From assembly GCA_018238545.1 (NCBI GenBank), contig JABCTC010000028.1, forward strand, positions 1 to 45,333: DNA of 45,333 nucleotides, given 5' to 3'. The notes beneath the pieces are model-generated. The model worked only from the letters and a program-made list of their open reading frames with translations, did no database searches and was not told where the DNA came from. Source of the DNA: Candidatus Heimdallarchaeota archaeon. GTDB taxonomy: Archaea > Asgardarchaeota > Heimdallarchaeia > Heimdallarchaeales > Heimdallarchaeaceae. Every line of letters starts with the position of its first letter. Within the stretch, counting starts at the first letter, position 1. This document shows positions 18,811 through 40,516 of this stretch, in pieces. The translations under genes and the position numbers were made by a program.

Positions 18811-20247
18811 CTAGATATTTTCTTCTTCTAGTTCAACTGTTTTTTTGTGAACAATGTATCGCTCATATTCAAAGATTAGATGATCATCAGATAATTGCGT
18901 AAAGGGAACATTCATGTTACCTTGAGGTAAAATAACGTAAAAGTCCATAACTTCAGGATCATCATTTTTGGGAATAAGAGGAGTAACGGTTTTATCTGGC
19001 CAATTATCATCAATAAGATATAACAATCCACCTTTATTTTCTATAGTAAGAGAGATGGTTTTCTTATACGCATCATATCTACCGCAAAGTTTTTTGTAGT
19101 GTTTTCTTCTTTTATAGAAAGGCATAACTTCATCTGGATTTTTATCTAAAAGCAGTGTTAATGCATTATGCATCAGATGAGATGGTATCCACGAAACATT
19201 GTAAAGTTGAGCAAATGTAATATTCAGCTCAGGTATGATTGCTACATTTCCACCTGTTACACCAGAGACTCCTTGGTGAGTAATAATTTGATAGCCATGA
19301 TAATTATCATAGATTTTCCAACCATAGCCATAAGCTGTAGTAGAACCAGGACACATTTCATAACTGCTAGCTTGAAGGTTTTTATTATGAGGTTCCCACA
19401 TTTTATGAATAAGTTCCTCACTTAGTAATCTTGTTCCATTAAATTCTCCACCATTCAATTGACAGAGGAGAAAGTTGGTCATCTCTTTAACACTGGAGAT
19501 TAAACCACCAGAACCAGCTATGAACTTATCTGTAAGAAGCTGTTTAGAATGCCTTTTTATCCTGTCTTCGCTCCATTCATATGCAAATCCCTCTGAAGCA
19601 TCTTCATCTTTATCAACATCTGTTTTAGCAAATGTGCTACGGTTCATATTCAAAGGTTGGAGAATCTTTTCTTTGATATATTGTTCAAATGGTACTCCAC
19701 TTATTTTTTCCACAATCTGACCAAGTAAAGTGAAACCAGCGTTCCAGTAATAGTATTTTGTTCCAGGAGGACTTAGAACTTCACTTTTAGCATCGTTTAT
19801 GTGGAAATAAAAATCATCCCAGTTCCCAAGTGGAAATAATGGAGGCTTGGGTTTGTAGAGCTGCTGGTTCATCTGAGACATGTAGAAAGTCATTAATGAG
19901 GAAACACCGGAACCGTGACACATCAAATCATGAATTTTGATAGGTTGGTCTTTAAAGCCTATATCCACGGGTAAATGATTTGAAATTGGATCAAGTAAAT
20001 CTAACTTGCCCTCTTCATACAGCTGTAATATAGCAAAATCAGTAACAGACTTAGTAATTGAAGAAACGCCAAATAATGTATCAACAGTTGCTTCTTTAAC
20101 ATCTCCTCGCTTTCTAAGTCCAAAAGATCTCTCATAAATGGTTTCTCCATCTTTTGTAACAAGAATGGACATACCTGGAACATTGAAATCCCTCATAACT
20201 TTAACGGATTCATGTTCAAATCTCTCTTTAAATTTTGACAAATCCAT
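18811..20247 (-). CDS. Serine hydrolase, beta-lactamase class C / S12 family, Pab87 (CubicO)-like peptidase
   Basis: SxxK (SSITK), YxN (YYWN), HQG; C-terminal LCGRYDAYKKTI...PLIP...YERY resembles the Pab87 octamerisation domain. Confidence 0.85.
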   Translation of the reverse strand: MDLSKFKERFEHESVKVMRDFNVPGMSILVTKDGETIYERSFGLRKRGDVKEATVDTLFGVSSITKSVTDFAILQLYEEGKLDLLDPISNHLPVDIGFKDQPIKIHDLMCHGSGVSSLMTFYMSQMNQQLYKPKPPLFPLGNWDDFYFHINDAKSEVLSPPGTKYYYWNAGFTLLGQIVEKISGVPFEQYIKEKILQPLNMNRSTFAKTDVDKDEDASEGFAYEWSEDRIKRHSKQLLTDKFIAGSGGLISSVKEMTNFLLCQLNGGEFNGTRLLSEELIHKMWEPHNKNLQASSYEMCPGSTTAYGYGWKIYDNYHGYQIITHQGVSGVTGGNVAIIPELNITFAQLYNVSWIPSHLMHNALTLLLDKNPDEVMPFYKRRKHYKKLCGRYDAYKKTISLTIENKGGLLYLIDDNWPDKTVTPLIPKNDDPEVMDFYVILPQGNMNVPFTQLSDDHLIFEYERYIVHKKTVELEEENI

Positions 20248-20330
20248 GAATTTTCACAATATGGTATCTCTTATAGTAATATTATTTTACGTTTAATTTA
20301 TAACTATTTTGCTAAACATAAACTTTTTTT

Positions 20331-20347
20331 CCCGAAAATCTTATATA
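20331..20347 (+). promoter_or_regulatory. BRE + TATA promoter of oppA
   Basis: CCCGAAAATC-TTATATA about 76 nt upstream of the TTG start; TTCCCGAA is repeated at 20348-20355. Confidence 0.7.
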
Positions 20348-20422
20348 TTCCCGAATAAATTTTAGAAATAAGTCTTTAATGAAATGTTAGAGACATAAAT
20401 AAAAAAAAAGGAATGAAATAAT

Positions 20423-22165
20423 TTGAATAAAAAATTGTTAACAATTTCAGCAATTGTTGTCGGTTTTATTTTAGCATTCACTCCAAGTTTAATGGTTATT
20501 GGGCAAGACCCAATTTACGGAGGAACGCTAAATACTCCATTAGGAGCTGACGCTCATGCTCTAAATCCATTTACATGGGGTACTACATATGAGTGGTATG
20601 TAATGGCACACATATATGATAGCCTAGTAGCTTTGGATACAGAGAGACAACCAGTTCCAGTTTTATGTTCTGGATGGTCGCACAATGAAACTTATGAGCA
20701 ATGGACATTTACCCTTGTTGATAATGCATTTTGGCATGACGGCACTCCTGTTACCATAGATGATGTGTACTTTACATATGATCTGTTAATGAATGACGAT
20801 GCAATCCCAAGAAGAAGCTGGTTATTTGATGAAATCACTAGCCTAGAAATAGTTGGTACTGATCAAATCGTTATTACATTTGGTTGGGGTCCTAAACCTG
20901 CAGACGTTCTTTTTGATCTTGCTACAACTTGGATTGTTCCTGAACACATCTGGGATACAATTGATTTGTACACCTTCGCTAATGATGTAAATCCAATTGG
21001 CAGTGGACCTTTCAAATTTGTTGAATGGGCTCGTGCACAATACTTCAGACTTGCAGCTCACACCGAGTATCATCTGGATGGGCCTTATATTGATGAGAAA
21101 ATCTTACCAATCATCAGTGAAGTTGAAACAGCTTATTATGCACTCAGTGTTGGTGACATAGAAGTTATGGCTAATCCACCACCTGAACTAGAAGCAGTTG
21201 CAGACGTCGATCCAAATATCGCAATCCATGAATCTTTACAAGATTATTGGGTATATCTAGGACTAAATCAGCGTAGATATCCAAATAACATTAAAGAATT
21301 CAGACAAGCTGTTATGTACGGTATTAATCGTTCTGAAATAGTGGATATTATTAGATATGGACGCGGTGAAGTTTGTCCCGCATCATGCAGTTTACCTTAT
21401 GGTGCATACTATAATCCTGCTGTTAAGCAATACGACTACAATGTAGCTACCGCTAATTCAATGCTTGATGCTCTTGGTTTCTTAGATAATGTTGGAGACG
21501 ATGGTATCCGTGAGGATGCTAATGGAACTGACCTATCATTTGACTTAATTGTCAGCGCTGACGCTCAAGTATCAGTAGATACATGCAGATTTATCCAAGA
21601 GTATATGCTAGAGATTGGAATAGAAGTAACTGTTGTTCCTCTTATCTGGGATGTTCTTTGGCAAACTGTAGGTGGTACTGGCAGTGTTAGTAACACATAC
21701 GATTATGACTGGGCATTCTTAGGATGGGTAGGCTTCTGGAGCGATTTCCACCCAAGCTGGGCACGATGGTTATTCAGTGCAAATGGTTGGTGGGGATCTG
21801 ATCAAGTTAACATCCCTGGATGGAACAGTACTGCTCGTTGGGAAGTTACAGCCTTAGCAGATGAGATTCTATACGAAACTGATGAAGCTGTAATTCAAAC
21901 AAAACTTGATGCACTTCAAGTGATTGTTGCTGAAGATTTACCATATCTTCCAATAAACATTCTTGGTGGAACCTTCCTATACAGAACTGATGAGTTCAAA
22001 GGATGGGTTCTTGGACCAACAACTGATCCAGATAACTGGATGACTTGGTTAGCAATCCAACTGATTGTTGCACCAGAAGGTGGACCAGGTTACCTTGCAT
22101 TATCTGCAATATTCACATTAGTTGTTACCGTTGGTTTGGTAAAATACAGACGCAAGAAACAGTAA
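20423..22165 (+). CDS. oppA: Oligopeptide/dipeptide ABC transporter substrate-binding protein (family 5) with C-terminal membrane anchor
   Basis: Signal peptide, YGGTL, IYDSLV, WHDGTPVTIDDVYFTY, PIGSGPFKF, FRQAV; C-terminal PGY-TM-KYRRKKQ; TTG start. Confidence 0.93.
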   Translation: MNKKLLTISAIVVGFILAFTPSLMVIGQDPIYGGTLNTPLGADAHALNPFTWGTTYEWYVMAHIYDSLVALDTERQPVPVLCSGWSHNETYEQWTFTLVDNAFWHDGTPVTIDDVYFTYDLLMNDDAIPRRSWLFDEITSLEIVGTDQIVITFGWGPKPADVLFDLATTWIVPEHIWDTIDLYTFANDVNPIGSGPFKFVEWARAQYFRLAAHTEYHLDGPYIDEKILPIISEVETAYYALSVGDIEVMANPPPELEAVADVDPNIAIHESLQDYWVYLGLNQRRYPNNIKEFRQAVMYGINRSEIVDIIRYGRGEVCPASCSLPYGAYYNPAVKQYDYNVATANSMLDALGFLDNVGDDGIREDANGTDLSFDLIVSADAQVSVDTCRFIQEYMLEIGIEVTVVPLIWDVLWQTVGGTGSVSNTYDYDWAFLGWVGFWSDFHPSWARWLFSANGWWGSDQVNIPGWNSTARWEVTALADEILYETDEAVIQTKLDALQVIVAEDLPYLPINILGGTFLYRTDEFKGWVLGPTTDPDNWMTWLAIQLIVAPEGGPGYLALSAIFTLVVTVGLVKYRRKKQ

Positions 22166-22181
22166 AAACTTTAACTCACCC

Positions 22182-22220
22182 GGATTAAACGAAAGTTTAA
22201 TCCTTCAATTTCTTTTTTTT
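22182..22220 (+). terminator. Stem-loop plus U-tract after oppA
   Basis: GGATTAAAC-GAAA-GTTTAATCC, a perfect 9-bp stem with GAAA tetraloop (22182-22203), followed by TTTCTTTTTTTT. Confidence 0.75.
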
Positions 22221-22282
22221 CCGTTTTCAAAAACAACAAATAACGTTTAGTTAACAAAAAAAATTCTAAACATATAGTTTTA

Positions 22283-22298
22283 CCCGAAATGTTTAAAA
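22283..22298 (+). promoter_or_regulatory. Internal BRE + TATA promoter upstream of oppB
   Basis: CCCGAAATG-TTTAAAA, same design as the oppA promoter; GGAG RBS at 22331-22334 before ATG 22343. Confidence 0.6.
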
Positions 22299-22342
22299 GT
22301 ATTTTATGTATCAGTGGTTTAACCATTTGTGGAGTAACAATT

Positions 22343-23335
22343 ATGGGCTTAAAATCATATATTGCAAAGAAGTTATTATTTGCTGCTGTTGCGTATTTCG
22401 TAGCAATTACTTTAGTGTTTTTCCTTTATCACGTATTACCAGGTAATCCTGCTAATGTTTTTGCATTAGATCCGAGAGTTCCACCAGATGTTAGAGAAGC
22501 ATTGCTAATCAGATGGGGATTAAATGAACCCCTTTGGAAGCAGTATTTCATTTTCTTGGGTAATCTGCTTCAAGGTGACCTTGGGTACTCCTTTTTACAC
22601 AAAAAACCCGTTAGTGAAGTTATTGGAGTCTCTATCCCATGGACCTTACTTTTACTTGGAACATCATTCATTTTAAATGCAGTTATCGGAATACTTCTTG
22701 GAGCTATTGTTGCTTGGAGAAGAGGATCAAAGCTAGATACGGGTTTCGTTTTAACTTACAATGTTTACAACGCTCTACCATTGTTTTTCGTAGGAATGCT
22801 GTTTATTGCGTTGTTTGGGTTCACGGCGAGAATAAATAATTGGCCTATATGGTTCCCAACGTATGGAGCTCAAACGCCTGGGGCATCTGAAACGGGCTTT
22901 TTCTCATATCTTGGAGATGTTTTATGGCATCTGTTCCTACCCTTATTGGTATTGACAATTTCAGGTGTTTTAGGTTGGTCTTGGTTTATGCGAGGAAACT
23001 TGATTAGCGTTCTGACAGAAGATTACATTAAAACAGCTAGAGCAAAAGGCCTTAACGAAAACCAAGTATTATTCAAACACGCCTTCAGAAATGCAATACT
23101 TCCGGTCATTACAAATATTGGAATGTCAATTGGAGGGTTAATTGGAGGAGCAGTTCTGATAGAAACGGTTTTTTCATACCCTGGAACGGGTAGAATGCTC
23201 TACGACGCATTAATGAGACGTGATTATCCCTTAGTACAAGGGGCTTTTGTAATAATTGCAGGTTTAACTTTACTTGGATTGTTACTTGCAGAGATAGTTT
23301 ATGGGTTCGTTGACCCAAGGATTAGAACCGAATAG
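22343..23335 (+). CDS. oppB: Peptide ABC transporter permease
   Basis: LPGNPA, GLNEPLWKQY, GDLGYS, EDYIKTARAKGL, HAFRNA, IETVFSYPGTG, RDYPLVQG, DPRIR. Confidence 0.95.
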   Translation: MGLKSYIAKKLLFAAVAYFVAITLVFFLYHVLPGNPANVFALDPRVPPDVREALLIRWGLNEPLWKQYFIFLGNLLQGDLGYSFLHKKPVSEVIGVSIPWTLLLLGTSFILNAVIGILLGAIVAWRRGSKLDTGFVLTYNVYNALPLFFVGMLFIALFGFTARINNWPIWFPTYGAQTPGASETGFFSYLGDVLWHLFLPLLVLTISGVLGWSWFMRGNLISVLTEDYIKTARAKGLNENQVLFKHAFRNAILPVITNIGMSIGGLIGGAVLIETVFSYPGTGRMLYDALMRRDYPLVQGAFVIIAGLTLLGLLLAEIVYGFVDPRIRTE

Positions 23336-23346
23336 GAGGAATAAAT

Positions 23347-24258
23347 ATGGCTACAATTAGAAGAGATAATATTCGAAGAAAAATATCTAAATGGGGGAGA
23401 ACCTGGAAAATTTATAGAAGGAACTGGATGGGTGTTACAGGACTTATATTATTGTCCACGCTCGTCACATTAGCGATATTAGGACCAAGTATAACTCCTT
23501 ATGAATCACATGAAAGATCAGAAGACATCTTTCAACCCCCAGGTAACGGACATTTATTAGGTACTAATCGTTTTGGAGAAGATGTTTTTACAATCCTCTT
23601 AGATAGCTTACGTATATCCTTATTGGTGGGTGTGATTGCAGGAAGCTTAACAGTAATTATAGGAACCACTATTGGCGTTACAAGTGCCTACATAGGTGGT
23701 TGGGGAGATACGTTAATAATGCGGATAACTGATGTTATTTTAGTTTTACCAGCATTACCATTAATGTTGCTATTAGCATCATTAGCACCTTTGCTTGCTG
23801 ATGTGGGAGATTTCCTAGTTCCACGATGGTTAATAATAGCAATAGTTTATGTTGTAGTTTTCTGGCCAGTTTCAGCAAGATTGATACGTGGGCAGGCATT
23901 ATCTCTTAAACAACGAGCATTTATTACAAGTGCTAAATCAGCTGGAGCTAAGAACGGCTATATTATTCGCAAGCATTTGCTTCCAAACGTTTTTCCGCTT
24001 ATGCTGACTATGATTATCACATCGATGAGACAAGCTATCCTATATGAAGCATTTCTATCATATCTGGGACTTGGAGATCCTTGGAATTGGAGTTTAGGAA
24101 TGATGCTGAGTGTTGCGCAAAATCAAGCATCCTTAGCAACTGGAGCATGGTGGATGTATTTCCCACCAGGTATTGCAATCGCTTTAACGACGCTCAGTTT
24201 CGCGTTTATTGGGATAGCATTTGATGAAATTGTTAATCCAAGACTTAGAAAACGGTGA
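23347..24258 (+). CDS. oppC: Peptide ABC transporter permease
   Basis: HLLGTNRFGEDV, MRITD, ARLIRGQALS, HLLPNV, WWMYFPPG, NPRLR; GGAGG RBS. Confidence 0.95.
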   Translation: MATIRRDNIRRKISKWGRTWKIYRRNWMGVTGLILLSTLVTLAILGPSITPYESHERSEDIFQPPGNGHLLGTNRFGEDVFTILLDSLRISLLVGVIAGSLTVIIGTTIGVTSAYIGGWGDTLIMRITDVILVLPALPLMLLLASLAPLLADVGDFLVPRWLIIAIVYVVVFWPVSARLIRGQALSLKQRAFITSAKSAGAKNGYIIRKHLLPNVFPLMLTMIITSMRQAILYEAFLSYLGLGDPWNWSLGMMLSVAQNQASLATGAWWMYFPPGIAIALTTLSFAFIGIAFDEIVNPRLRKR

Positions 24259-24263
24259 TTAAA

Positions 24264-25277
24264 ATGGTGTTACTAGAAGTTAAAAATTTAAAAACCTATT
24301 TCCATACTCGATCAGGTTCAGTAAAAGCTGTAGACAATGTAAGTTTTAAACTTGGAAAAGGAGAAGTTCTAGGTCTAGCAGGAGAAAGTGGGTGTGGTAA
24401 AACTACTACCTGTTTATCAATCATGCGCATGATTGATAATCCTGGAGAGATATTAGAAGGAGAGATACTTTACGAGAATGCCAAGGATGTTATGGGTAAA
24501 TCAGACAACGCGGAAAGAACCAATAACATTTTAGATTTAACTGAAGTTGAAATGCGAAAAATCAGAGGCAACCATATTGCCATGATCTTTCAAGGTGCAA
24601 TGAATGCAATGAATCCTGTTCATAGAATTGGTGATCAAATAATGGAAGTATTAAGCATTCATGAACCTCAGGTGCCAAAAGAGGAAGCATGGCAAAGGGT
24701 TATTGACATCTTAGAAGTTGTAGGCATTGATTCATCTAGAGCTAGAGATTATCCTCATCAGCTTTCAGGCGGTCAAAAACAACGAGCATTAATCGCTATG
24801 GCACTAATTAATAATCCTGACATAGTCATAGCTGATGAACCCGTTACTGCTTTAGATGTAATTGTACAGTCACAAGTTCTAAAGGCAACAAAAGAACTTC
24901 AGAAAAAGTACAACCTTTCAATGATAATGATAACTCATGATCTTTCTGTGATTGCAGAAGTTTGTGAGACTTTGGCAATAATGTATGCAGGTAAAATGGT
25001 AGAATATGGAAAACTTAGAACTGTATTCAAAGAACCATCCCATCCTTACACTCAGTTGCTTATAGATGCTTTTCCAAGTATTGTTGGACCTAAAAAAGAG
25101 CTAAAGGATATTGGAGGAAACATACCTGATCTACGCAATCCTCCTCCTGGTTGTAATTTTCACCCTAGGTGTCCTAATGTAATGGATATCTGTAGAACTG
25201 AAGAACCACCAAATTTTGCAACAAAGGATGGTTTTGTTGCTTGTTGGTTATATGAAGGAAAAATGGAGAGAACATAA
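24264..25277 (+). CDS. oppD: Peptide ABC transporter ATP-binding protein
   Basis: GESGCGKT, YPHQLSGGQ, IADEP, ITHD, C-terminal GCNFHPRC...C...VAC domain; GGTGA RBS before ATG 24264. Confidence 0.95.
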   Translation: MVLLEVKNLKTYFHTRSGSVKAVDNVSFKLGKGEVLGLAGESGCGKTTTCLSIMRMIDNPGEILEGEILYENAKDVMGKSDNAERTNNILDLTEVEMRKIRGNHIAMIFQGAMNAMNPVHRIGDQIMEVLSIHEPQVPKEEAWQRVIDILEVVGIDSSRARDYPHQLSGGQKQRALIAMALINNPDIVIADEPVTALDVIVQSQVLKATKELQKKYNLSMIMITHDLSVIAEVCETLAIMYAGKMVEYGKLRTVFKEPSHPYTQLLIDAFPSIVGPKKELKDIGGNIPDLRNPPPGCNFHPRCPNVMDICRTEEPPNFATKDGFVACWLYEGKMERT

Positions 25278-25279
25278 AG

Positions 25280-26479
25280 ATGTCAAAATCAAAAGTACCG
25301 GTTATCGATGCAATACATGTAACCAAGTTATTTCCAGTTATGAAAGGCATTATAGAAGGACTGTTTAAGCGTAGTGAACAACAATATGTTCATGCTGTAG
25401 ACGATATAACTTTCACTATTCAAGAAGGAGAAACTTTCGGTTTAGTGGGTGAAAGCGGTTGTGGAAAATCAACTACAGGCATGCTTCTACTTCAATTACT
25501 TAATAGAACTAGTGGTACAATTTTATACAAAGGAATAGATGTAGCTAGCTCGTTTACATGGCCTGGTTACATTTCTCGTATCTTGAATGCTCATTTCTTC
25601 ATGCCTATAGGTTATGGATTATCATACATCTTCAGATCTAAAGAAAGTAGAGAATTGTTTACTGAAGTGATGAACGAGGCAATAAAAGAAGCAAGGATCT
25701 ACAAGGAAAACTTAAACGATAAAGAGGTTTTAGATAGAATTAAAAATCTAAGAAAAGAGATTCAAGTTATATTTCAAAATCCCTATGATTCCTTGAGTCC
25801 TAGATTCAATGTAATGGATATAGTTGCAGAACCCTTAAGGTTACTCAAGGTTTATCCAAGTGAAGCTGAGGTAGAAGCACGAGTACTACACGAACTTGAT
25901 AGTGTTGGACTGGTTCCTCCTGAAGATTTCATCAATCGATTTCCTCACGAGTTATCTGGCGGTCAACGACAAAGAGTTGGTGTTGCACGAGCCTTTACGG
26001 TTGATCCAAAATTCATTGTAGCTGATGAACCAGTATCTATGTTAGATGTTTCTGTAAGAGTAGGTATTCTGCGCACTATGAACCAATTATCTAAGGAACG
26101 TGGAACTGCATTTCTATTCATAACTCATGATTTAGCTTTGGCAAGAGTCATGTGTGATCAGATAGCAGTCATGTATCTTGGAAGAATAGTTGAACGAGGT
26201 CCTACAGAAGAAATTCTCCATAATCCTTTACACCCATATACAAAAGCTTTGATTGCAGCTGTTCCAAAACCTGACCCCGATGCCCACAGAACAGAAGACT
26301 TACCAATAATCGGTGAGGTTCCAAGCGGTATAGATATTGCACCAGGTTGTAGGTTTAACCCCAGATGTATATATGCTATAGAGGAATGTAGTCAGATTGA
26401 CCCACAACTAGAGACAGTGAAAAAAGGTTATTATGTAGCATGTATAAGGTACAAAGAGATTAACAAAATCAAAAACTAA
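25280..26479 (+). CDS. oppF: Peptide ABC transporter ATP-binding protein with an insertion of about 55 aa
   Basis: GESGCGKS, FPHELSGGQRQR, VADEPVSMLD, ITHD, GCRFNPRC. Confidence 0.95.
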   Translation: MSKSKVPVIDAIHVTKLFPVMKGIIEGLFKRSEQQYVHAVDDITFTIQEGETFGLVGESGCGKSTTGMLLLQLLNRTSGTILYKGIDVASSFTWPGYISRILNAHFFMPIGYGLSYIFRSKESRELFTEVMNEAIKEARIYKENLNDKEVLDRIKNLRKEIQVIFQNPYDSLSPRFNVMDIVAEPLRLLKVYPSEAEVEARVLHELDSVGLVPPEDFINRFPHELSGGQRQRVGVARAFTVDPKFIVADEPVSMLDVSVRVGILRTMNQLSKERGTAFLFITHDLALARVMCDQIAVMYLGRIVERGPTEEILHNPLHPYTKALIAAVPKPDPDAHRTEDLPIIGEVPSGIDIAPGCRFNPRCIYAIEECSQIDPQLETVKKGYYVACIRYKEINKIKN

Positions 26480-26506
26480 TTTATTGCTTAATTATGGTGA
26501 GATAAC

Positions 26507-28696
26507 GTGAATGAAACGGAATTTGGGAACATCAATAATCTGATGCACAGTGGAGAGTATAATAAGGCTTTAGAGAAAGTTGAGAAACATCAAAAAGAAA
26601 AAAATCTCACAGATGCTGAGATTTTAAGTCTGAGTTATCTTCAATGTGCAGTTCACAGATTCTTAGGGAATTTTGAGAAGGTTATAGAACTCTCATCGAC
26701 TGTACGAGAAAAAGCAAAAGAACAGAATAATGTTCTTATAGAAGCGGATGCACTTTTATCAGAAATTTTTTCGTTATACCGCCTGGGGGAGTTGGATAAA
26801 GCATCAGGTTTAGTGCAACGAGCAGAAGATCTAATTGAAAATTCTAACTTGAAAGAAATGTCTTCTAGGAGAGCTTATTTGCTTGCATACAAAGCTTATG
26901 TATATGAAGCAAAAGGGGAAGCTGAGCAAGCATTTATTTATGCCCAGCAAAACTATTTTCTCTGCAAAGAATTAGATAATCCTACTTTGCTAGCTTTGGC
27001 ATATTATATCCTAGGATTTATTCATATGAGTACAGGAAATATGGAAAAAGCTTTAGAGAACAATCAAAAAAGCTTAGAAATACGTGAAAAAGATGGAAGC
27101 AAATATGATCTTGCTTTCACCTTGTTTAATTTAGGTTATGCACATAGAAACCTAGGAAATCTTGACGCAGCCCTAGATTATTTTAATAGTAGTTATAAAA
27201 TCCGAAAGAAAATTGGAAATCAACAAGATATTGCATGGACACTTTTGAATTTAGGTGATGTTTACTATGGGAAGGGTGATCTAAAACATGCTCAAAATTA
27301 CTACGAAGAGTCACTCATTGTAAATCAACGTATGCACTTCAATTTTGGTACAATATTTTCTTTTATACGTTTAAGTACAGTGTATAAAGTATTAGATGAT
27401 CCACAGTTGGTGATGGACACATTAGAGAAAGCATTAAGTTTAGTACAGAAGGTACAAAATGTAGACCCTGAAGTCTATATTTTATTTGAGCTAATAAATT
27501 ACATCACAGAGAAGAAGTATATACACAGAAATGCTCTGAAGGATAAACCTCTAAAGGAGTATCTAGAAAGATTGAACGAGATCAATCTAAATTATAAACA
27601 TAAAGTATTCAGTTTCCTAAATCGTCTAGCTAAAGGATTAGAACTAAAAGCAATAGGCGACACTAAAAATAAGAAGAAAGCAAGACAGATATTTCAACAA
27701 ATCACTGAAGAAGAAATCATCAGTTTTGATTACATAAAAATAGCTATTACAAATTACAGTGAACTTCTTGCTGAAGAATTGAGAAAATATTTTGGTGAGG
27801 ATACATTAGTCAATCAACTCAATGAATTATCGGATTCCCTTTCTCCCGTTCTTTTCCAACAGTCATTCTCGATGGTTGCAGAAAACTTTCTAAATCAGAG
27901 TAGATCAGCGTTAGAACAAACAGATATTGTAAAAGCACTTGAGCTTTTAAAACGAGCTCAATATTTATGTGATTTTCTTGGGTTATATAACAAAGGTCCG
28001 ACTCCGTTTAGAATCATCTATAGTTTATTTATGAAAGAAAGAAACCTAAATGAACTCAGTAAAAACCTCAAGATAACAAAAGGTGCATTAAGTAGCCAAC
28101 TAAAGTTACTTGTAGATCTAGATATTGTAGAAATTGCACGAGAAGAACAGGTTAGATCTGCAACTATGCTAAAGAAATATTATCGATTAGGTTCGCGAGG
28201 AAGAGAATTGCTTCAACCTTTGAATCTGAATATTTGTGATTGCATTAGAAGAAAAGAAGAAGATGCTGAATCTATAATTGATGCCTTGATGAAACCAAGA
28301 CTTATCATGAAACTAATCAGAGACACTACTTTTTTAGTTGATAATTTCCAGAATTTTCTAGATGAACATGTTATTCTCAAACCTCTTGGATCTTCTTCAG
28401 ATATTACTCAGAAAGATTTAAACAATGTCAAAGAAATGTTTAGTGACTCAAAGAGCATTAACATCGACCATTATTTTCTAACTGAAAAACAATATGAAGA
28501 ATATCAGAAATTATGGAGAGAATTCGATAGAAGAGTAAAAACAGAAATCATTCAAGATGACATAAATTCTTCTAGTTATCATTCAGTTGAGAAACCAATA
28601 TACATCTCACACATTAACTTACCAATTAAGGATTTAATGACTTTAGAGCGCTATTTGACCACTAAAAGGAAAAAACAAGTTAACAAAAAAGAGTAA
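26507..28696 (+). CDS. TPR-repeat protein with C-terminal ArsR-type winged helix-turn-helix (putative transcription regulator)
   Basis: Consecutive ~40-aa TPR units (LALAYYILGFIHMSTGNMEKALE, LAFTLFNLGYAHRNLGNLDAALDYF, IAWTLLNLGDVYYGKGDLKHAQNYY); wHTH PTPFRIIYSL..ERNLNELSKNLKITKGALSSQLKLLVDLDIVE...KYYRL; GGTGA RBS and GTG start. Confidence 0.85.
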   Translation: MNETEFGNINNLMHSGEYNKALEKVEKHQKEKNLTDAEILSLSYLQCAVHRFLGNFEKVIELSSTVREKAKEQNNVLIEADALLSEIFSLYRLGELDKASGLVQRAEDLIENSNLKEMSSRRAYLLAYKAYVYEAKGEAEQAFIYAQQNYFLCKELDNPTLLALAYYILGFIHMSTGNMEKALENNQKSLEIREKDGSKYDLAFTLFNLGYAHRNLGNLDAALDYFNSSYKIRKKIGNQQDIAWTLLNLGDVYYGKGDLKHAQNYYEESLIVNQRMHFNFGTIFSFIRLSTVYKVLDDPQLVMDTLEKALSLVQKVQNVDPEVYILFELINYITEKKYIHRNALKDKPLKEYLERLNEINLNYKHKVFSFLNRLAKGLELKAIGDTKNKKKARQIFQQITEEEIISFDYIKIAITNYSELLAEELRKYFGEDTLVNQLNELSDSLSPVLFQQSFSMVAENFLNQSRSALEQTDIVKALELLKRAQYLCDFLGLYNKGPTPFRIIYSLFMKERNLNELSKNLKITKGALSSQLKLLVDLDIVEIAREEQVRSATMLKKYYRLGSRGRELLQPLNLNICDCIRRKEEDAESIIDALMKPRLIMKLIRDTTFLVDNFQNFLDEHVILKPLGSSSDITQKDLNNVKEMFSDSKSINIDHYFLTEKQYEEYQKLWREFDRRVKTEIIQDDINSSSYHSVEKPIYISHINLPIKDLMTLERYLTTKRKKQVNKKE

Positions 28697-28713: not shown

Positions 28714-30189
28714 ATGGATTTGGAATATTTGAATAGTGAGATTTTAAAAAATTATATCAATGGAAAATGGGTTGATTCAACAACTGATGAAACACGAGAT
28801 GTTATTAATCCCGCTTCAGGTGAGGTTCTTGCAAAAACCCCAATATGCACAAAAGAAGAAGCTTTAGAAACAATCAAAGCTGCAAAGGAAGCATTTTGGA
28901 AATGGAGAACAACTCCTGCACAGTCTAGAATAAGATACTTATATGATTTTCGAGATGCACTGGAAGAGAATTTTGATGATCTTGTAGAAGTTGTAACAAA
29001 GGAACACGGTAAAACATTAGATGAGTCTAGAGGAGAATACCGAAGAGCAATTGAGAATGTAGAAGCAGCTACTCATATTCCTTCGCTTCAAATGGGTTAT
29101 AATTTTGAGGAAATAGCTTCAGGTATCGACGAGATGGTTATTAAACAACCACTTGGCGTTTTCTTCTGCGTTGCACCATTCAATTTCCCAGTTATGGTAC
29201 CAGCTTGGTTTTGGCCCTATGCAATAGCTACTGGGAATACATACATCGTAAAACCTTCAGATCAGTGCCCAATAAGCATGGTAAAACAATTTGAGATTCT
29301 AGATGAGATTGGATTACCTAAAGGTGTTGTAAATCTATTACATGGTGGGCCTGAGGTTGTAAATGCTCTAGTAGAAAGTCCCGATACTGTAGGTTTATCT
29401 TTCGTTGGATCCACCAAAGTCGGAAAACTACTCTATAAAAAATGTGGAGAAGTTGGTAAGAGAGTTCAGGTTCAAGGCGGAGCTAAGAATTTCATAACCA
29501 TTATGCCAGATGCTAATATCGATAGAACTGTACCAAATCTAATCACTTCATTTTTTGGTAATGCAGGGCAACGATGTTTAGCAGGTGGTGTATTATTGAC
29601 TGTTGGAGACGTTCACAATCCGTTGAAAGAGAAATTAATTGAATCAACTAAACAAATAAAAGTTGGAGACGGGATGGATGAAGATAACCATATGGGTCCT
29701 CTAGCTTCCGAAGCTGGCATGAAGAAGGTACTAGAATACATTCAGAAAGGCATTGATGAAGGAGCAACATTAGTATTAGATGGAAGAAATGTAAGGGATG
29801 ATGAGTCTCTTAAGAATGGTTTCTATGTTGGTCCTACAATTTTCGAAAATGTTTCACCAGAGATGTCAATTGCTCAAGAAGAAATTTTTGGTCCTGTTAT
29901 GCCTATTGTAAATGTTAAAAATTTAGATGAAGCAATAGAAGTCATTCACAACAATCCTTATGGAAATGCCTCCTCCATTTTTACTTCAAGTGGGAAATCA
30001 GCTAGAGATTACCAATATCTTGTCAAAGCAGGCAATATTGGTATAAACATAGGTGTTGCAGCACCAATCGCAACTTTTCCATTCTCTGGAATGAAAGATA
30101 GTTTTATGGGAGATCTTCATGGACAAGGGAAAAGCGGAATAGATTTCTTTACAGAAGACAAGGTTGTAATTACAAGATGGTTTGATTAA
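28714..30189 (+). CDS. mmsA: CoA-acylating (methyl)malonate-semialdehyde dehydrogenase
   Basis: PFNFPVMVPAW, KPS, SFVGST, QGGAKN (no catalytic Glu, typical of MMSDH), AGQRCLA, EEIFGP, FSGMKDSFMGDLHGQG. Confidence 0.93.
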   Translation: MDLEYLNSEILKNYINGKWVDSTTDETRDVINPASGEVLAKTPICTKEEALETIKAAKEAFWKWRTTPAQSRIRYLYDFRDALEENFDDLVEVVTKEHGKTLDESRGEYRRAIENVEAATHIPSLQMGYNFEEIASGIDEMVIKQPLGVFFCVAPFNFPVMVPAWFWPYAIATGNTYIVKPSDQCPISMVKQFEILDEIGLPKGVVNLLHGGPEVVNALVESPDTVGLSFVGSTKVGKLLYKKCGEVGKRVQVQGGAKNFITIMPDANIDRTVPNLITSFFGNAGQRCLAGGVLLTVGDVHNPLKEKLIESTKQIKVGDGMDEDNHMGPLASEAGMKKVLEYIQKGIDEGATLVLDGRNVRDDESLKNGFYVGPTIFENVSPEMSIAQEEIFGPVMPIVNVKNLDEAIEVIHNNPYGNASSIFTSSGKSARDYQYLVKAGNIGINIGVAAPIATFPFSGMKDSFMGDLHGQGKSGIDFFTEDKVVITRWFD

Positions 30190-30217
30190 AAGAAAAATGA
30201 AAGAAAAGTGATAGGAA

Positions 30218-30637
30218 ATGAGTTTAGAAACTTTAGGTGCAACAATAAAGTTTGCTCTCAATCAAGAAACAGTTTTACTAGAATTCTTCCAATCTATGCA
30301 GAAGAACAACAAAAATGAAAAACTAGTAGAGGTTATAGACAAGATAGTTCAATTATCTACAAAAAATCTTAAACGATTGAAGAGAATACGAAGAGAAAAT
30401 ACGACCGAGATGATTCTTGAACCAATAAAAGGTTTAGAAAAATCAAGATTTATATTCGTTAAAGAAGATATTAACAAAATTGGTGAACATGAAGTAGTTA
30501 ATAGTTTGAAGAACTATCTAACAAAAATAATATTATTTTACTCTGAATCTGCTGAAAAAGTAAGTTTTATTGGAGAAATATCATACGTTTTTGAGCAATT
30601 CAAAGAAAAATATCAAGAGCTAATTAATTTGATTTAA
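30218..30637 (+). CDS. Small helical protein, possibly ferritin/rubrerythrin-like fold without a full di-iron motif
   Basis: All-helical pattern; IKFALNQE...FF, RRENTTEMILEPI, FYSESAEK; no ExxH. Confidence 0.55.
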   Translation: MSLETLGATIKFALNQETVLLEFFQSMQKNNKNEKLVEVIDKIVQLSTKNLKRLKRIRRENTTEMILEPIKGLEKSRFIFVKEDINKIGEHEVVNSLKNYLTKIILFYSESAEKVSFIGEISYVFEQFKEKYQELINLI

Positions 30638-30654
30638 TGTGTTAGGTGAAAAAT

Positions 30655-31947
30655 ATGAACTCAGAAGAAATAAGGAAGAAGGATGAAGAGTTTTTTATTC
30701 AAGGGTACGCTAGAGTACCTATTGTATTGACAGAAGGGAAAGGAGCAACGTTAAAGGATATAAACGGAAAAGAATACATTGATTGTTTTGCAGGAATTGC
30801 AGTTTCAAATGTTGGTCATGCTCATGAAAGGTTAGTTCAAGCAGGTACTAATCAAATGAAGAAACTGATTCACACTTCAGGGAGATTTTTCAATATTCCA
30901 CAAACACTTCTAGTAGAAAAACTTGCAGAGATCACACCTAATGGTTTACAACACACTTACTTGTGTAACAGTGGAACAGAAGCTGTGGAAAATGCTGTCA
31001 AGCTTGTAAAGAAATATGCTATATCTCGTGGCAAAACAGGAGCTGCGCTGATTGCTCTTGAAGGTTCCTTTCATGGAAGATTAGGTTTTTCCCTCAGTTT
31101 AACTGGTCAAGCAAAATACAAGAAAGGATTTTCATCTTATGCTAATCTACAAGGAGTAGTTCATGCACCAACGCCTTACCCTTATAGATCAAAACTCTCA
31201 GAGGAAGAATGTGGAGAAGAAGCAGCGTTAGCTATTGAAAATGTGATTGATTATCATACAGCTGGAGATGTTGCTGCATTCATCATTGAACCCATACTTG
31301 GTGAAGGAGGAATTATCGTTCCACCTGATACTTATTTTGAAACTTTGGTTGGGATACTAAAAGAGCGAGATATTCCGTTTATCTCTGATGAAGTACAATC
31401 TGGTTTTGGTCGATCTGGTAAATGGTTTGCTAGTGAATATTGGAATCTTAATCCAGATTTAATGACCCTAGCTAAAGGACTTGGTGGAGGTATGCCCATT
31501 GGAGCAGCTATTGCTACAAGCAAGATAGTTGAATGTGTTAAATCAGGTGACTTCTTCTCAACTTATGGAGGTAATCCTGTCTGTTCAGCGGTAGCACTAG
31601 AAAACATCAAAATTATTGAAGATGAAAAATTAGTCGAGAATTCCGCTAATATTGGTAAGGTCTTCATGGAGGGGCTAAAAAATATACAAAGGAAGAATAG
31701 TATAATCGGAGATGTGAGAGGAAAAGGATTAATGATAGGTTTTGAACTTGTTAAAAATCCTAAAACTAAGAAACCTGCAGTAGACGAAACTAAAAAGATG
31801 GTAAACTTACTCAAAAATGAAGGAGTTATCATAGGTTTGGGTGGATTATTTGGGAATGTTCTAAGACTTCAACCTCCTTTATGTATAACAGAAGAGCAAG
31901 CCAATGAAGTATTAGATAAAATTGAAAAGACATTAACCTCCCTTTAA
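30655..31947 (+). CDS. Class III PLP aminotransferase (omega-amino acid: GABA / beta-alanine type)
   Basis: YIDCFAGIAV..VGH, NSGTEA, FHGR, EPILGEGG, DEVQSGFGRSG, PLP lysine in TLAKG, STYGGNP, VLRLQPPL; AGGTGA RBS before ATG 30655. Confidence 0.92.
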   Translation: MNSEEIRKKDEEFFIQGYARVPIVLTEGKGATLKDINGKEYIDCFAGIAVSNVGHAHERLVQAGTNQMKKLIHTSGRFFNIPQTLLVEKLAEITPNGLQHTYLCNSGTEAVENAVKLVKKYAISRGKTGAALIALEGSFHGRLGFSLSLTGQAKYKKGFSSYANLQGVVHAPTPYPYRSKLSEEECGEEAALAIENVIDYHTAGDVAAFIIEPILGEGGIIVPPDTYFETLVGILKERDIPFISDEVQSGFGRSGKWFASEYWNLNPDLMTLAKGLGGGMPIGAAIATSKIVECVKSGDFFSTYGGNPVCSAVALENIKIIEDEKLVENSANIGKVFMEGLKNIQRKNSIIGDVRGKGLMIGFELVKNPKTKKPAVDETKKMVNLLKNEGVIIGLGGLFGNVLRLQPPLCITEEQANEVLDKIEKTLTSL

Positions 31948-32070: not shown

Positions 32071-32973
32071 ATGAATGCAGGAAATACTCATAGAATAACC
32101 ATGAAAGATGTTGTTTACAAAGCTGATAAAAATAACCCTCCGGTTTTAACTATTGATTCTGGTGATACAGTTGTATTCGAATGTAAAGATGCCTTTAATC
32201 AAGTAATTCAAAAACCTGAAGATTTGCCGATTGACTTTGATATGGAGCACATTAATCCAGCAACTGGTCCTGTTTATGTGAAAGGTGCAGAACCTGGTGA
32301 CACTTTAGAGGTTCATATACTCAACATAGATGTAGCGGAACAAGGTTCTTGTTGCATAATACCTAATTTTGGTTTTCTAGCCCCTGAATTTCCAGAACCA
32401 TGGACTAGAATAATTCCAATCAAGGATGGTTATGCGATATTCAGTGATAAAGTAAAAATACTAATTAATCCTTTTCCAGGAACGATGATTGTTGCGCCAA
32501 CTGAAGTAACTCACGACCACGGAACACTTATCCCTAAGGAATATGGAGGGAACATGGATAGTCGAGCATGTACTGCAGGAACAACTGTTTTTCTACCTAT
32601 TTTTGTTGAAGGTGCTCTTTTTGGTGTAGGTGATGTTCATGCGGTCCAAGGTGATGGTGAAGTTTGTGGAACAGCTGTTGAAATCGATGCTGATGTAACT
32701 ATCAAATTTGTTGTGAATAAGAACAAGAAAATTAAGAGACCTCATTATGAGAATAAGGAGTATTATATGACAACTGCATGGGGAGAAACAACTGATGAAG
32801 CTTGTAAAATTGCTTTGAGAGATATGATCGATTGGATAGTTGAAGAAAAAGGACTAACAAAACAAGAAGCTTATGCTCTTTGCAGCTGTGCTGTTGATAT
32901 GAGAATCAGCCAGTTAGTAGACATTACACCTGGAGTTAGAGCAGTAATCGCAAAAAAATTATTTGTTGAGTGA
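32071..32973 (+). CDS. Acetamidase/formamidase family amidohydrolase
   Basis: NPATGPVYVKGAEPGDTL, GGNMD, GDVHAVQGDGEVCGTAVE, AYALCS. Confidence 0.92.
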   Translation: MNAGNTHRITMKDVVYKADKNNPPVLTIDSGDTVVFECKDAFNQVIQKPEDLPIDFDMEHINPATGPVYVKGAEPGDTLEVHILNIDVAEQGSCCIIPNFGFLAPEFPEPWTRIIPIKDGYAIFSDKVKILINPFPGTMIVAPTEVTHDHGTLIPKEYGGNMDSRACTAGTTVFLPIFVEGALFGVGDVHAVQGDGEVCGTAVEIDADVTIKFVVNKNKKIKRPHYENKEYYMTTAWGETTDEACKIALRDMIDWIVEEKGLTKQEAYALCSCAVDMRISQLVDITPGVRAVIAKKLFVE

Positions 32974-32986
32974 GAGTTAAAGGAGA

Positions 32987-34051: not shown

Positions 34052-34120
34052 TAAGTAAGATCCCTTTATGGTATATCAGTAATATTTTTGTATGTGTCTT
34101 AAAACCCCTATTTGATAATA

Positions 34121-35938: not shown

Positions 35939-35967
35939 AACACCCTCCTTTTATTCTTCTTTTATTA

Positions 35968-37077: not shown

Positions 37078-37138
37078 GATATATGGAAAAGCTACCTAAT
37101 ATTAAAAATTTGGTTAAAAAAAGTTAAGAAAAAACCTC

Positions 37139-38284: not shown

Positions 38285-38308
38285 ATTTGAAAGAGCTAAT
38301 TCATTATG

Positions 38309-38329
38309 ATAAATGTTACTGAAAAACAA
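38309..38329 (-). promoter_or_regulatory. Promoter element shared by both subtilase genes
   Basis: + strand ATAAATGTTACTGAAAAACAA beginning 25 nt from the start codon. Confidence 0.65.
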
Positions 38330-38412
38330 GTTTTCAATGAGTTTGAAGATGTTTAGAAGTAATTGTGCTAAAGGGGAAAAGAGCAGCTAAGAAAATGATG
38401 AAGAAGTTTTCT

Positions 38413-40430: not shown

Positions 40431-40516
40431 AGTTACCAGAAGGTCCCTCCTTTTTATAACATAGTGTAATATGTGCAAAATACAGAGGGTTTAGCGACGT
40501 TTGAAGCATAACTCTA

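What the first reader, a model, noticed from the sequence alone, without database searches (positions are those of the whole stretch)
20423..28696. TPR-winged-helix regulator wired into an Opp operon: candidate archaeal peptide-sensing system analogous to RRNPP
Seen: a 729-aa protein with N-terminal TPR repeats and a C-terminal ArsR-like wHTH starts 27 nt after oppF and ends 17 nt before mmsA, so it appears to sit inside one transcription unit. Known: in Firmicutes, RRNPP receptors (Rap, Rgg, NprR, PlcR, PrgX) are TPR proteins, most with an HTH, that bind peptides imported by Opp; their HTH is N-terminal, the reverse of this architecture. Inference: this may be an independently evolved one-component regulator that senses imported oligopeptides (nutrient or signal) and controls the uptake and catabolic genes. 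I found no obvious pheromone-precursor ORF next to it, so nutrient sensing is the more conservative reading.
Basis: partly seen in the sequence, partly recalled or inferred. Interest (0 to 1): 0.72.

Follow-up and report, generated by a model that had tools for sequence, protein, structure and literature searches.

The report
Asgard peptide-transporter operon with own regulator
A Heimdall-group (Asgard) archaeon keeps a large repeat-domain DNA-binding protein at the end of a peptide-uptake operon, and the same rare palindrome sits before both of the operon's promoters, so this is very probably the operon's own on/off switch; what it senses is unknown.

Summary
Window 26507-28696 encodes a 729-aa protein, 27 nt after oppF and 17 nt before a methylmalonate-semialdehyde dehydrogenase gene. 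A TPR superhelix fills residues 1-495. An ArsR/Phr-type winged helix follows at 499-561, then a 165-aa helical domain.

The window belongs to a Heimdallarchaeaceae genome. Full-length orthologs (38-92% identity) always lie next to oppABCDF: directly after oppF wherever the upstream DNA is assembled, and once divergently.

New here is a 31-nt palindrome, AYGTTTAR-N15-YTAAACRT, with conserved arms and fixed spacing.
- It lies 9-11 nt upstream of the BRE/TATA of oppA and again of oppB.
- These are its only two copies in the 3.6-Mb genome.
- Both copies are kept in related species.
- A matching palindrome precedes a distant, non-opp paralog.

The protein is therefore most likely the cassette's dedicated, autoregulated transcription factor.

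The likeness to RRNPP receptors is only at fold level: Z about 28, tied with MalT and APC subunits. Domain order, helix type, host range and the missing pheromone gene all exclude membership. Peptide sensing is plausible but untested.

The C-terminal half also exists elsewhere as a stand-alone 250-aa regulator, so the TPR domain looks like an added input module. This is a new variant of a known kind.

The parts
18811..20247 (-). Pab87-like serine peptidase (Beta-lactamase fold plus Pab87 octamerisation domain), transcribed divergently from oppA
   Evidence: Pfam PF00144 at E 1.6e-53 and PF13969 at E 1.1e-11. Conserved in this position in all 11 long ortholog loci.
20289..20319 (.). IR1 site A: palindrome ACGTTTAA-N15-CTAAACAT, the candidate operator. 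Its spacer holds the likely BRE/TATA of the Pab87-like gene on the minus strand (TTATAAA, 20297-20304).
   Evidence: One of only two matches in the 3.63-Mb genome. Conserved in 13 loci, with top-base frequency 0.92 in the arms.
20331..20348 (+). BRE/TATA of the oppA promoter (CCCGAAAATCTTATATAT), 11 nt after IR1
   Evidence: Invariant CCGAAA plus TATA block in 13 aligned loci. Promoter function is inferred.
20372..20394 (+). IR2: GTCTTTAA-N7-TTAGAGAC, at about the expected transcription start. Either a 5'-UTR hairpin or a second operator.
   Evidence: Seven pairs kept in 13 loci, one compensatory change and several G-U changes. Its only strict match in the genome. Role unresolved.
20423..22165 (+). 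oppA, substrate-binding protein (TTG start, signal peptide, C-terminal anchor), preceded by Shine-Dalgarno-like AAAGGAATGA at 20407-20416
   Evidence: PF00496 at E 2e-65; translation.
22182..22203 (+). Hairpin followed by a T-run after oppA: a terminator or attenuator
   Evidence: A hairpin of different sequence plus a T-run lies at the same place in 12 loci. Function is inferred.
22243..22273 (.). IR1 site B: ACGTTTAG-N15-CTAAACAT
   Evidence: The second of two genome matches. In 12 loci the arms score 0.96 and the spacer 0.64 in top-base frequency, and the 15-nt spacing never varies.
22283..22299 (+). BRE/TATA of the oppB promoter (CCCGAAATGTTTAAAAG), 9 nt after IR1
   Evidence: Conserved in 12 loci. 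Function is inferred.
22343..23335 (+). oppB permease, with corrected start
   Evidence: PF00528. Conserved GGAG plus ATGGG start in 12 loci, in frame with the ORF called from 22289.
23347..24258 (+). oppC permease
   Evidence: PF12911 and PF00528.
24255..25277 (+). oppD ATPase
   Evidence: PF00005 and PF08352.
25280..26479 (+). oppF ATPase, with an insertion of about 60 aa in the ABC domain
   Evidence: PF00005 matched in two stretches, plus PF08352; sequence.
26507..27991 (+). Regulator residues 1-495: TPR superhelix of about 12 helical hairpins, the presumed input domain
   Evidence: Pfam TPR families. Model pLDDT above 90 over most of this part. VIA-align Z 26-31 to APPBP2, APC5, RapF, NprR and MalT domain III.
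28001..28189 (+). Regulator residues 499-561: ArsR/Phr-type winged helix-turn-helix, with recognition helix TKGALSSQLKLL
   Evidence: HTH_5 at 28.5 bits. Most conserved part of the protein, 0.81-0.83. Z 11.6 to Phr (2p4w) and 11.3 to PH1932.
28232..28693 (+). Regulator residues 576-729: helical C-terminal domain, including one 37-residue helix
   Evidence: Model. Homologous, together with the winged helix, to stand-alone 250-aa regulators. Folds poorly when predicted alone.
28714..31947 (+). mmsA, a 139-aa ORF and a class-III aminotransferase. They are co-directional with the regulator only in this sub-lineage.
   Evidence: TIGR01722 at 506 bits; PF00202; synteny.

Best explanation
The 729-aa protein is the dedicated one-component transcription factor of an accessory peptide-uptake cassette in one Heimdallarchaeaceae clade. 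The cassette is: Pab87-like peptidase gene, divergent promoter region, oppA, terminator, second promoter, oppBCDF, regulator.

Its C-terminal half is a complete ArsR/Phr-type regulator module: a winged helix plus a helical domain that probably dimerises. Inferred step: this module binds the two arms of the palindrome AYGTTTAR-N15-YTAAACRT, whose half-site centres lie 23 bp apart.

One copy of the palindrome sits 11 nt upstream of the oppA BRE/TATA. That copy also brackets the BRE/TATA of the divergent peptidase gene. A second copy sits 9 nt upstream of the oppB BRE/TATA. The oppB promoter also transcribes the regulator, so the regulator controls its own synthesis.

The N-terminal TPR superhelix is an added input domain. 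Inferred and untested: it binds a ligand delivered by the transporter, most likely an imported oligopeptide or a breakdown product, and this changes DNA binding or contact with TFB/TBP.

By the archaeal position rule, occupancy should activate the two opp promoters and occlude the peptidase promoter. The sign of regulation is the least secure step.
For: Architecture:
- Domain content and order.
- The winged helix is the most conserved part of the protein, and the genome holds no second copy of it.
- The genome's other TPR paralogs lack the winged helix and C-terminal domain.

Linkage to opp:
- oppF lies directly upstream in 15 of 15 testable places.
- All 11 long species-representative loci share the whole cassette.
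- Metagenomic orthologs at 38-50% identity do too.
- In a 42%-identity ortholog the gene is divergent from opp yet still adjacent, next to M3 and S58 peptidase genes.

Operator:
- The strict palindrome occurs twice in 3.63 Mb, both times at promoters of this operon.
- Both sites are kept in related species, with invariant 15-nt spacing and a free spacer at the oppB site.
- Among 399 Asgard genomes, only family-f1 genomes carry two copies. 14 of the 16 genomes with the regulator have a strict match. Six other genomes have single matches, and the reversed control pattern gives about 22 singles.
- A full match with the same spacing lies in the intergenic region upstream of a 29%-identity paralog that is not linked to opp.
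- Phr, the best structural match of the winged helix, also uses a wide 29-bp site with TTTA at -10 and AAAA at +10 (PMC9133787).
- Archaeal activators typically bind just upstream of BRE/TATA (PMC6737238).
Against: - No binding data exist.
- The palindrome and the regulator are always gained or lost together with the whole cassette. Their co-occurrence therefore cannot be separated from opp itself.
- The 42%-identity ortholog locus has no recognisable palindrome. Its recognition helix also differs (TKGGLNRPLKLL).
- The BRE/TATA elements look strong, which fits repression better than activation.
- Nothing identifies the ligand. The TPR fold matches are non-specific, and conservation in the TPR part is only moderate.
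- The C-terminal domain seems to pack on the TPR domain, so the groove might be occupied by the protein itself.
Confidence: 0.68

Rival explanations
1. The protein is the local regulator acting through IR1, but its TPR domain reads something other than a free peptide. One option is a protein partner such as the OppD/OppF ATPases, giving transport-coupled control as MalK exerts on MalT. Another is a small catabolite such as a D- or beta-amino acid.
For: - TPR domains most often bind proteins. The top fold matches include APPBP2, APC5 and LGN.
- TPR_MalT scores above its Pfam cut-off, and MalT domain III scores Z 26.4.
- The gene directly follows oppF, which carries a lineage-variable insertion.
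- Neighbouring genes suggest D- or beta-amino-acid peptide catabolism: Pab87-like, S58, MMSDH and a class-III aminotransferase.
Against: No NTPase domain of the MalT/STAND kind is present. No interaction data exist.
Confidence: 0.3
2. The protein regulates the cassette, but IR1 is the site of another factor. Its own operator would be IR2 or an unrecognised site.
For: - IR2 (20372-20394) is conserved at the expected transcription start, the classical repressor position.
- An IR2-like element persists in the rearranged locus that lacks IR1.
Against: - IR2 occurs at only one of the two promoters. Its G-U-compatible changes fit an RNA hairpin.
- IR1 occurs only at this operon.
- An IR1-like site accompanies a paralog elsewhere.
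- No other regulator gene is conserved in the cassette.
Confidence: 0.1
3. The protein is a true quorum-sensing receptor of RRNPP type that evolved independently. It would detect a secreted, processed signalling peptide re-imported by Opp.
For: Opp adjacency, and TPR fold matches to Rap, NprR and AimR with bound peptides.
Against: - No conserved small ORF lies next to the gene. The gaps are 27 and 17 nt, and the small ORFs in the promoter regions overlap cis-elements.
- The protein diverges at about the same rate as OppA and OppF, not in fast pherotype fashion.
- The neighbourhood is catabolic.
Confidence: 0.07
4. The protein is not a transcription factor. It would be a TPR scaffold for the transporter or the peptidases, with a winged helix used for protein contacts.
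For: Some winged helices bind proteins, and the protein is large and mostly TPR.
Against: - The winged helix is the most conserved segment.
- The C-terminal half is homologous to stand-alone ArsR-type regulators.
- Matching palindromes lie at both promoters.
Confidence: 0.04

Closest known systems
RRNPP(A) receptors of Bacillota and their phages and plasmids (Rap, NprR, PlcR, Rgg, PrgX, AimR)
   Same: A cytoplasmic protein with a long TPR superhelix joined to a DNA-binding domain, genetically tied to an Opp importer. Fold Z is 27-29 to RapF, phage Rap and NprR, and 22 to AimR.
   Different: - Here the TPR comes first and the DNA-binding domain second.
- The domain is a winged helix of ArsR/Phr type, not an XRE-type HTH.
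- An extra C-terminal domain is present.
- There is no pheromone gene.
- The host is an Asgard archaeon, whereas the family is described for Bacillota and their mobile elements (PMC12700828).
- Sequence identity is 10-13%, and the fold score is tied with unrelated TPR proteins.
MalT and other STAND regulators with a TPR-like sensor (MalT domain III, 1hz4; PH0952, 6mfv)
   Same: The sensor TPR precedes a C-terminal DNA-binding domain. The Pfam TPR_MalT hit is above its cut-off, and Z is 26.4 to MalT domain III. MalT also controls a binding-protein-dependent transporter regulon; that last point is from general knowledge.
   Different: No NTPase or oligomerisation module is present, and the DNA-binding domain is not LuxR-type.
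Phr (P. furiosus heat-shock regulator, 2p4w) and PH1932 (2cwe), archaeal ArsR-like regulators
   Same: Best structural matches of the DNA-binding domain: Z 11.6 and 11.3, at 22-23% identity. Both have a winged helix followed by helices. Phr has a wide site of about 29 bp with TTTA and AAAA about 20 bp apart (PMC9133787).
   Different: Phr is about 200 aa, has no TPR domain, and binds over the transcription start as a repressor. Scores to MarR, PadR and CzrA are within 1 Z unit, so the sub-family assignment is loose.
Stand-alone 250-aa HTH_5 regulators of other Promethearchaeota (L088, L089, L090)
   Same: Homologous over the whole C-terminal half: 25% identity over 204 residues, E 2e-14. HTH_5 hits are, and an Atlas cluster of 241-aa proteins is.
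   Different: They lack the TPR domain and lie next to a P-type ATPase gene, not opp.
Archaeal local regulators of ABC-transporter operons (TrmB/TrmBL1, TFB-RF1)
   Same: The same logic: one protein encoded at, or acting on, a transporter operon, with a palindromic site whose position relative to BRE/TATA sets the sign of regulation (PMC4706686, PMC6737238).
   Different: The DNA-binding and sensor domains are unrelated. Only a weak TrmB Pfam hit appears, and only in a distant paralog.

Membership tests
RRNPP(A) peptide receptors | DNA-binding HTH (XRE type) or a three-helix bundle at the N-terminus, followed by the TPR domain | tested here: not met
   TPR fills residues 1-495. The only DNA-binding domain is an ArsR-type winged helix at 499-561.
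RRNPP(A) peptide receptors | TPR domain of five to nine repeats whose concave groove binds the peptide | tested here: inconclusive
   Z is 27-29 to RapF, phage Rap and NprR. APPBP2 and APC5 score 30-31 and MalT 26.4, at 10-13% identity.
RRNPP(A) peptide receptors | Gene for a small secreted or leaderless propeptide next to the receptor gene | tested here: not met
   Flanking gaps are 27 and 17 nt. The only small ORFs in the two promoter regions overlap genes or cis-elements. No conserved small ORF appears in 16 ortholog loci. A propeptide gene elsewhere in the genome is not excluded.
RRNPP(A) peptide receptors | Ligand imported by an oligopeptide permease | not testable with these tools
   Only the adjacency to oppABCDF is shown.
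RRNPP(A) peptide receptors | Host range: Bacillota, their conjugative elements and their phages | tested here: not met
   All full-length homologs come from Heimdallarchaeota or other Asgard MAGs. The family's range is taken from PMC12700828.
MalT-type STAND regulators | NTPase (NB-ARC/AAA) domain | tested here: not met
   No P-loop family appears among the Pfam hits. The model is all TPR-like helices before the winged helix.
MalT-type STAND regulators | TPR-like sensor domain | tested here: met
   PF17874 TPR_MalT at 58.2 bits against a cut-off of 45. 1hz4 scores Z 26.4 over 349 residues.
MalT-type STAND regulators | C-terminal LuxR-type HTH | tested here: not met
   The DNA-binding domain is HTH_5 / winged helix.
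ArsR/SmtB-Phr type winged-helix regulators | Winged helix-turn-helix matching HTH_5 | tested here: met
   PF01022 at 28.5 bits against a cut-off of 22. Fold Z is 11.6 to Phr and 10.9 to CzrA. MarR and PadR score within 1 Z unit.
ArsR/SmtB-Phr type winged-helix regulators | Dimer that binds a palindromic operator | tested here: inconclusive
   A fitting palindrome lies at both promoters and nowhere else in the genome. Neither dimerisation nor binding could be tested.
ArsR/SmtB-Phr type winged-helix regulators | Metal-sensing sites of the ArsR/SmtB subgroup | not tested
   Not examined. The gene context gives no hint of metal sensing.

The most novel reading that the evidence does not exclude
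This would be the first archaeal cytoplasmic peptide-receptor transcription factor. An Asgard lineage would have built, independently of the bacterial RRNPP receptors, a TPR-groove sensor fused to a Phr-like winged helix. The sensor would read the oligopeptides brought in by its own Opp transporter, possibly peptides containing D- or beta-amino acids from bacterial cell-wall debris. It would then switch three promoters through one wide palindrome: turning on uptake while gating the divergent peptidase promoter embedded in the operator.
Probability: 0.25. Interest if true: 0.8.

Novelty: new variant of a known kind. Interest (0 to 1): 0.56.

Why it matters
Very few transcription factors of Asgard archaea have any assigned target. 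No archaeal regulator is known to sense imported peptides.

This locus offers a complete, testable circuit:
- a regulator with a separable input domain;
- a precisely predicted 31-nt operator at two promoters, plus a third promoter embedded inside the operator;
- a defined output, namely peptide uptake and a D-peptidase-like enzyme.

It also shows how a large sensor regulator can arise: a TPR module was added to a pre-existing small winged-helix regulator. If the ligand proves to be a peptide, this would be a case of convergence with the RRNPP receptors of Gram-positive bacteria. It would also tell us which organic matter these sediment archaea respond to.

Tried and rejected
- **Pheromone ORF.** None lies in the gaps or promoter regions.
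- **Palindrome versus regulator, independent of opp.** This test failed. Seven family-f1 genomes without the regulator also lack the OppA ortholog (positive controls G032 and G029 matched). The cassette therefore comes and goes as a whole.
- **Metagenome scan with the exact palindrome.** Three were ortholog cassettes and the rest unrelated chance matches. No further winged-helix paralog contexts turned up.
- **Looser palindrome search in the window.** Up to 3 mismatches found only the two known sites, so no further regulon members lie in the peptidase island.
- **C-terminal half folded alone.** The model was poor (pLDDT 60). Only the winged helix could be placed, and the C-terminal domain remains without a fold assignment.
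- **Own-genome TPR paralogs.** The 652-768 aa paralogs were tested for a hidden winged helix by profile comparison and none was found.
- **IR2 as an RNA structure.** Support is weak: -4.6 kcal/mol and one compensatory pair.
- **Literature.** Searches for archaeal TPR plus winged-helix regulators of ABC transporters, and for RRNPP in archaea, found nothing relevant.
- **TPR groove.** Model coordinates are not exposed, so groove occupancy and Asn lining could not be examined.

Full report
**What is there**

The window is contig C88 of a 3.63-Mb Heimdallarchaeaceae metagenome-assembled genome that is 92% complete. On the plus strand, 20423-26479 encodes OppA, OppB, OppC, OppD and OppF. After a 27-nt gap with a GGTGAG ribosome-binding-like site, a GTG-started ORF runs from 26507 to 28696 and encodes 729 aa. 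Seventeen nt later a gene begins that reaches the methylmalonate-semialdehyde dehydrogenase model. A Pab87-like serine peptidase gene is transcribed divergently from oppA, at 18811-20247.

**Anatomy of the protein**

Pfam finds several TPR families, TPR_MalT above its cut-off, and an ArsR-type HTH_5 at residues 501-542. An AlphaFold model built on 39 homologs is confident, with pLDDT 88 and pTM 0.83. It shows three parts:
- about 12 helical hairpins over residues 1-495;
- a winged helix at 499-561;
- a further helical domain at 576-728 that includes one 37-residue helix.

The winged helix is the most conserved part, with a mean top-residue frequency of 0.81-0.83 against 0.5-0.7 in the TPR part.

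Its best fold matches are the archaeal regulators Phr (Z 11.6) and PH1932 (Z 11.3). MarR, PadR and CzrA score within one Z unit.

The TPR part matches many TPR superhelices about equally, all at 10-13% identity:

| Structure | Z |
|---|---|
| APPBP2 | 30.8 |
| APC5 | 29.6 |
| RapF | 28.8 |
| phage Rap | 28.4 |
| NprR | 28.0 |
| MalT domain III | 26.4 |
| AimR | 22 |

The fold therefore fits a ligand- or peptide-binding sensor but does not single out RRNPP.

The C-terminal half, folded alone, gives a poor model with pLDDT 60. In the full-length model the same residues score 76-93. This suggests that the C-terminal domain packs against the TPR domain. I could not inspect coordinates.

**Origin**

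The C-terminal half (residues 488-729) is homologous over its whole length to stand-alone regulators of about 250 aa in other Promethearchaeota: 25% identity over 204 residues, E 2e-14. These carry HTH_5 and lie next to a P-type ATPase gene. A language-model search likewise points to a cluster of 241-aa archaeal HTH_5 proteins.

The genome's other large TPR proteins lack this module, and the winged helix has no second copy in the genome. The protein thus looks like a complete small regulator that acquired an N-terminal TPR input domain.

TPR-winged-helix relatives at about 30% identity exist in other Asgard MAGs in different contexts. One lies beside an FtsX-type ABC transporter, another diverges from a beta-lactamase-fold gene.

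**Link to opp**

About 35 full-length homologs at 38-92% identity exist, and every one that carries a source name is from Heimdallarchaeota or another Asgard archaeon.
- Among 399 Asgard genomes, orthologs occur only in the window's genus (15 of 24 genomes, counting the window's own) and its sister genus (1 of 2).
- oppF is directly upstream, on the same strand, in 15 of 15 places where the sequence allows the test.
- All 11 long loci show the order peptidase (minus strand), oppABCDF, regulator. So do metagenomic orthologs at 38-50% identity.
- In one 42%-identity ortholog the gene is divergent from oppABCDF and is followed by M3 and S58 peptidase genes. The adjacency therefore survived a rearrangement.
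- The mmsA, 139-aa ORF and aminotransferase genes follow on the same strand only in relatives of 77% identity or more.
- Family-f1 genomes without the regulator also lack the OppA ortholog. The cassette is accessory and moves as a unit.

**Cis-elements (new here)**

Alignment of the peptidase-oppA intergenic regions of 13 loci shows blocks conserved far beyond what 50-60% protein identity would predict.

The main element, IR1, is AYGTTTAR-N15-YTAAACRT.
- In the window it lies at 20289-20319, 11 nt upstream of CCCGAAAATCTTATATAT, read as BRE plus TATA.
- It lies again at 22243-22273, 9 nt upstream of CCCGAAATGTTTAAAAG.
- These are its only two occurrences in the genome.
- Both sites are kept in the related species, always with a 15-nt spacer.
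- At the oppB site the spacer sequence is free: top-base frequency is 0.64 there against 0.96 in the arms. This is the signature of a protein-binding site, not of an RNA stem.
- At the oppA site the spacer is conserved (0.84). Read on the minus strand it gives GCAAAA...TTATAAA, the likely BRE/TATA of the peptidase gene. That core promoter is therefore embedded in the operator.

Across 399 Asgard genomes, two copies per genome occur in only 12 genomes, all in this family. Fourteen of the 16 genomes with the regulator have a strict match. Of the other two, one has degenerate arms and the other carries the gene on a 2.6-kb contig. Elsewhere there are six single hits, and the reversed control pattern gives about 22 single hits. 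One genome has the sites but no regulator gene was found; there the sites sit between the peptidase gene and oppA on small contigs.

Independently of opp, a full match (ACGTTTAA-N15-TTAAACAT) lies in the intergenic region upstream of a small winged-helix gene and the 29%-identity paralog P0096. At the background rate seen, such a match in a 20-kb locus is expected about once in 10,000.

**Operon structure**

oppA is followed in every locus by a hairpin of varying sequence plus a T-run, then IR1, a BRE/TATA, a GGAG site and a conserved ATGGG start. There are therefore two units:
- oppA alone;
- oppBCDF plus the regulator, plus mmsA and its neighbours in this sub-lineage.

The true oppB start is probably 22343. 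The regulator would thus be autoregulated.

A second inverted repeat, IR2 (20372-20394), lies at about the expected transcription start of oppA. Its changes are compatible with G-U pairs and include one compensatory pair. It may be a 5' hairpin of the abundant oppA mRNA. It is absent from the oppB promoter.

**Mechanism**

Shown:
- domain content and conserved adjacency;
- a genome-unique, conserved palindrome at both promoters;
- an analogous palindrome near a paralog.

Inferred:
- the protein binds IR1 as a dimer, with half-site centres 23 bp apart, a wide geometry like the 29-bp site of Phr (PMC9133787);
- the TPR domain modulates this binding in response to a ligand supplied by transport.

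Archaeal factors bound just upstream of BRE/TATA usually activate (PMC6737238). One factor can activate or repress depending on the position of its site (PMC4706686). By that rule, occupancy would activate the two opp promoters and occlude the peptidase promoter.

Against this reading, the core promoters look strong, and co-induction of uptake and peptidase would be simpler with a ligand-released repressor. I leave the sign at roughly even odds.

**Ligand**

A peptide is the natural guess from context. The island also holds S58, S9 and two S8 peptidases, an amidase, MMSDH and a class-III aminotransferase. Nothing here tests binding, however. A protein partner such as OppD or OppF, or a small catabolite, remains a serious rival.

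**Comparison with known systems**

The protein may work like an RRNPP or MalT-type sensor-regulator, but it is a member of neither family.
- Against RRNPP: the domain order is reversed, the DNA-binding fold is different, no propeptide gene is present, and the host is archaeal (PMC12700828 gives the family's range).
- Against MalT/STAND: no NTPase domain and no LuxR-type HTH.
- Its DNA-binding half does belong with ArsR/Phr-like archaeal winged-helix regulators.

**Verdict**

The feature is real and conserved, and it is now much better defined. It is a new variant of a known kind: a one-component regulator with a TPR sensor, confined to one Heimdallarchaeaceae clade. Interest is moderate to good, because a precise operator prediction makes it directly testable.

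Noticed in passing
window 20372-20394: Conserved inverted repeat (GTCTTTGA-N7-TCAAAGAC type) between the oppA TATA box and the Shine-Dalgarno-like AAAGGAATGA. Its substitutions are compatible with G-U pairs. It may be a 5'-terminal mRNA hairpin or a second operator. An IR2-like element persists in the rearranged locus L012 at 9606-9627.
   Followed up: partly
window 22182-22220 and the same place in L043-L053 and L014: After oppA, every locus has a hairpin of a different sequence followed by a T-run. This points to termination or attenuation between the binding-protein gene and the permease genes.
   Followed up: partly
window 22289-22343: The longest ORF for oppB starts inside the predicted BRE/TATA. 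The conserved start, with a GGAG site upstream, is ATG 22343, giving 330 aa.
   Followed up: yes
window 25280-26479 (OppF residues about 88-155): OppF carries an insertion of about 60 aa inside the ABC domain. Ortholog lengths range from 346 to 481 aa, so the insertion varies by lineage.
   Followed up: no
L047 6022-7196, L050 5512-6677, L051 5392-6994: In some relatives, 1.1-1.6 kb separate the OppB and OppC matches. In the window they are 12 nt apart. The extra sequence, whether a domain or a gene, was not examined.
   Followed up: no
window 32071-39561: Downstream island of peptide and amide catabolism: FmdA/AmdA amidase, an APH-type kinase, an S9 peptidase with a beta-propeller, an S58 (DmpA-type) peptidase and two tandem S8 subtilases. 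A resolvase gene follows at 39681-40478.
   Followed up: partly
L018 8442-8961: In another Promethearchaeota MAG, an IR1-like palindrome precedes a 124-aa stand-alone winged-helix gene. That gene's wing (REEKVRGSILAKYY) resembles the regulator's, and the TPR-winged-helix paralog P0096 follows directly.
   Followed up: partly
L156 6320-7034: A metagenome contig 98.7% identical to the G011 cassette breaks about 290 nt into the regulator gene and continues in the 3' part of the peptidase gene. This is either an assembly chimera or a deletion/rearrangement variant.
   Followed up: partly
L012 9035-9574: In the rearranged ortholog locus, a 179-aa ORF with no Pfam match, apparently with a hydrophobic N-terminus, precedes oppA on the opp strand.
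   Followed up: no
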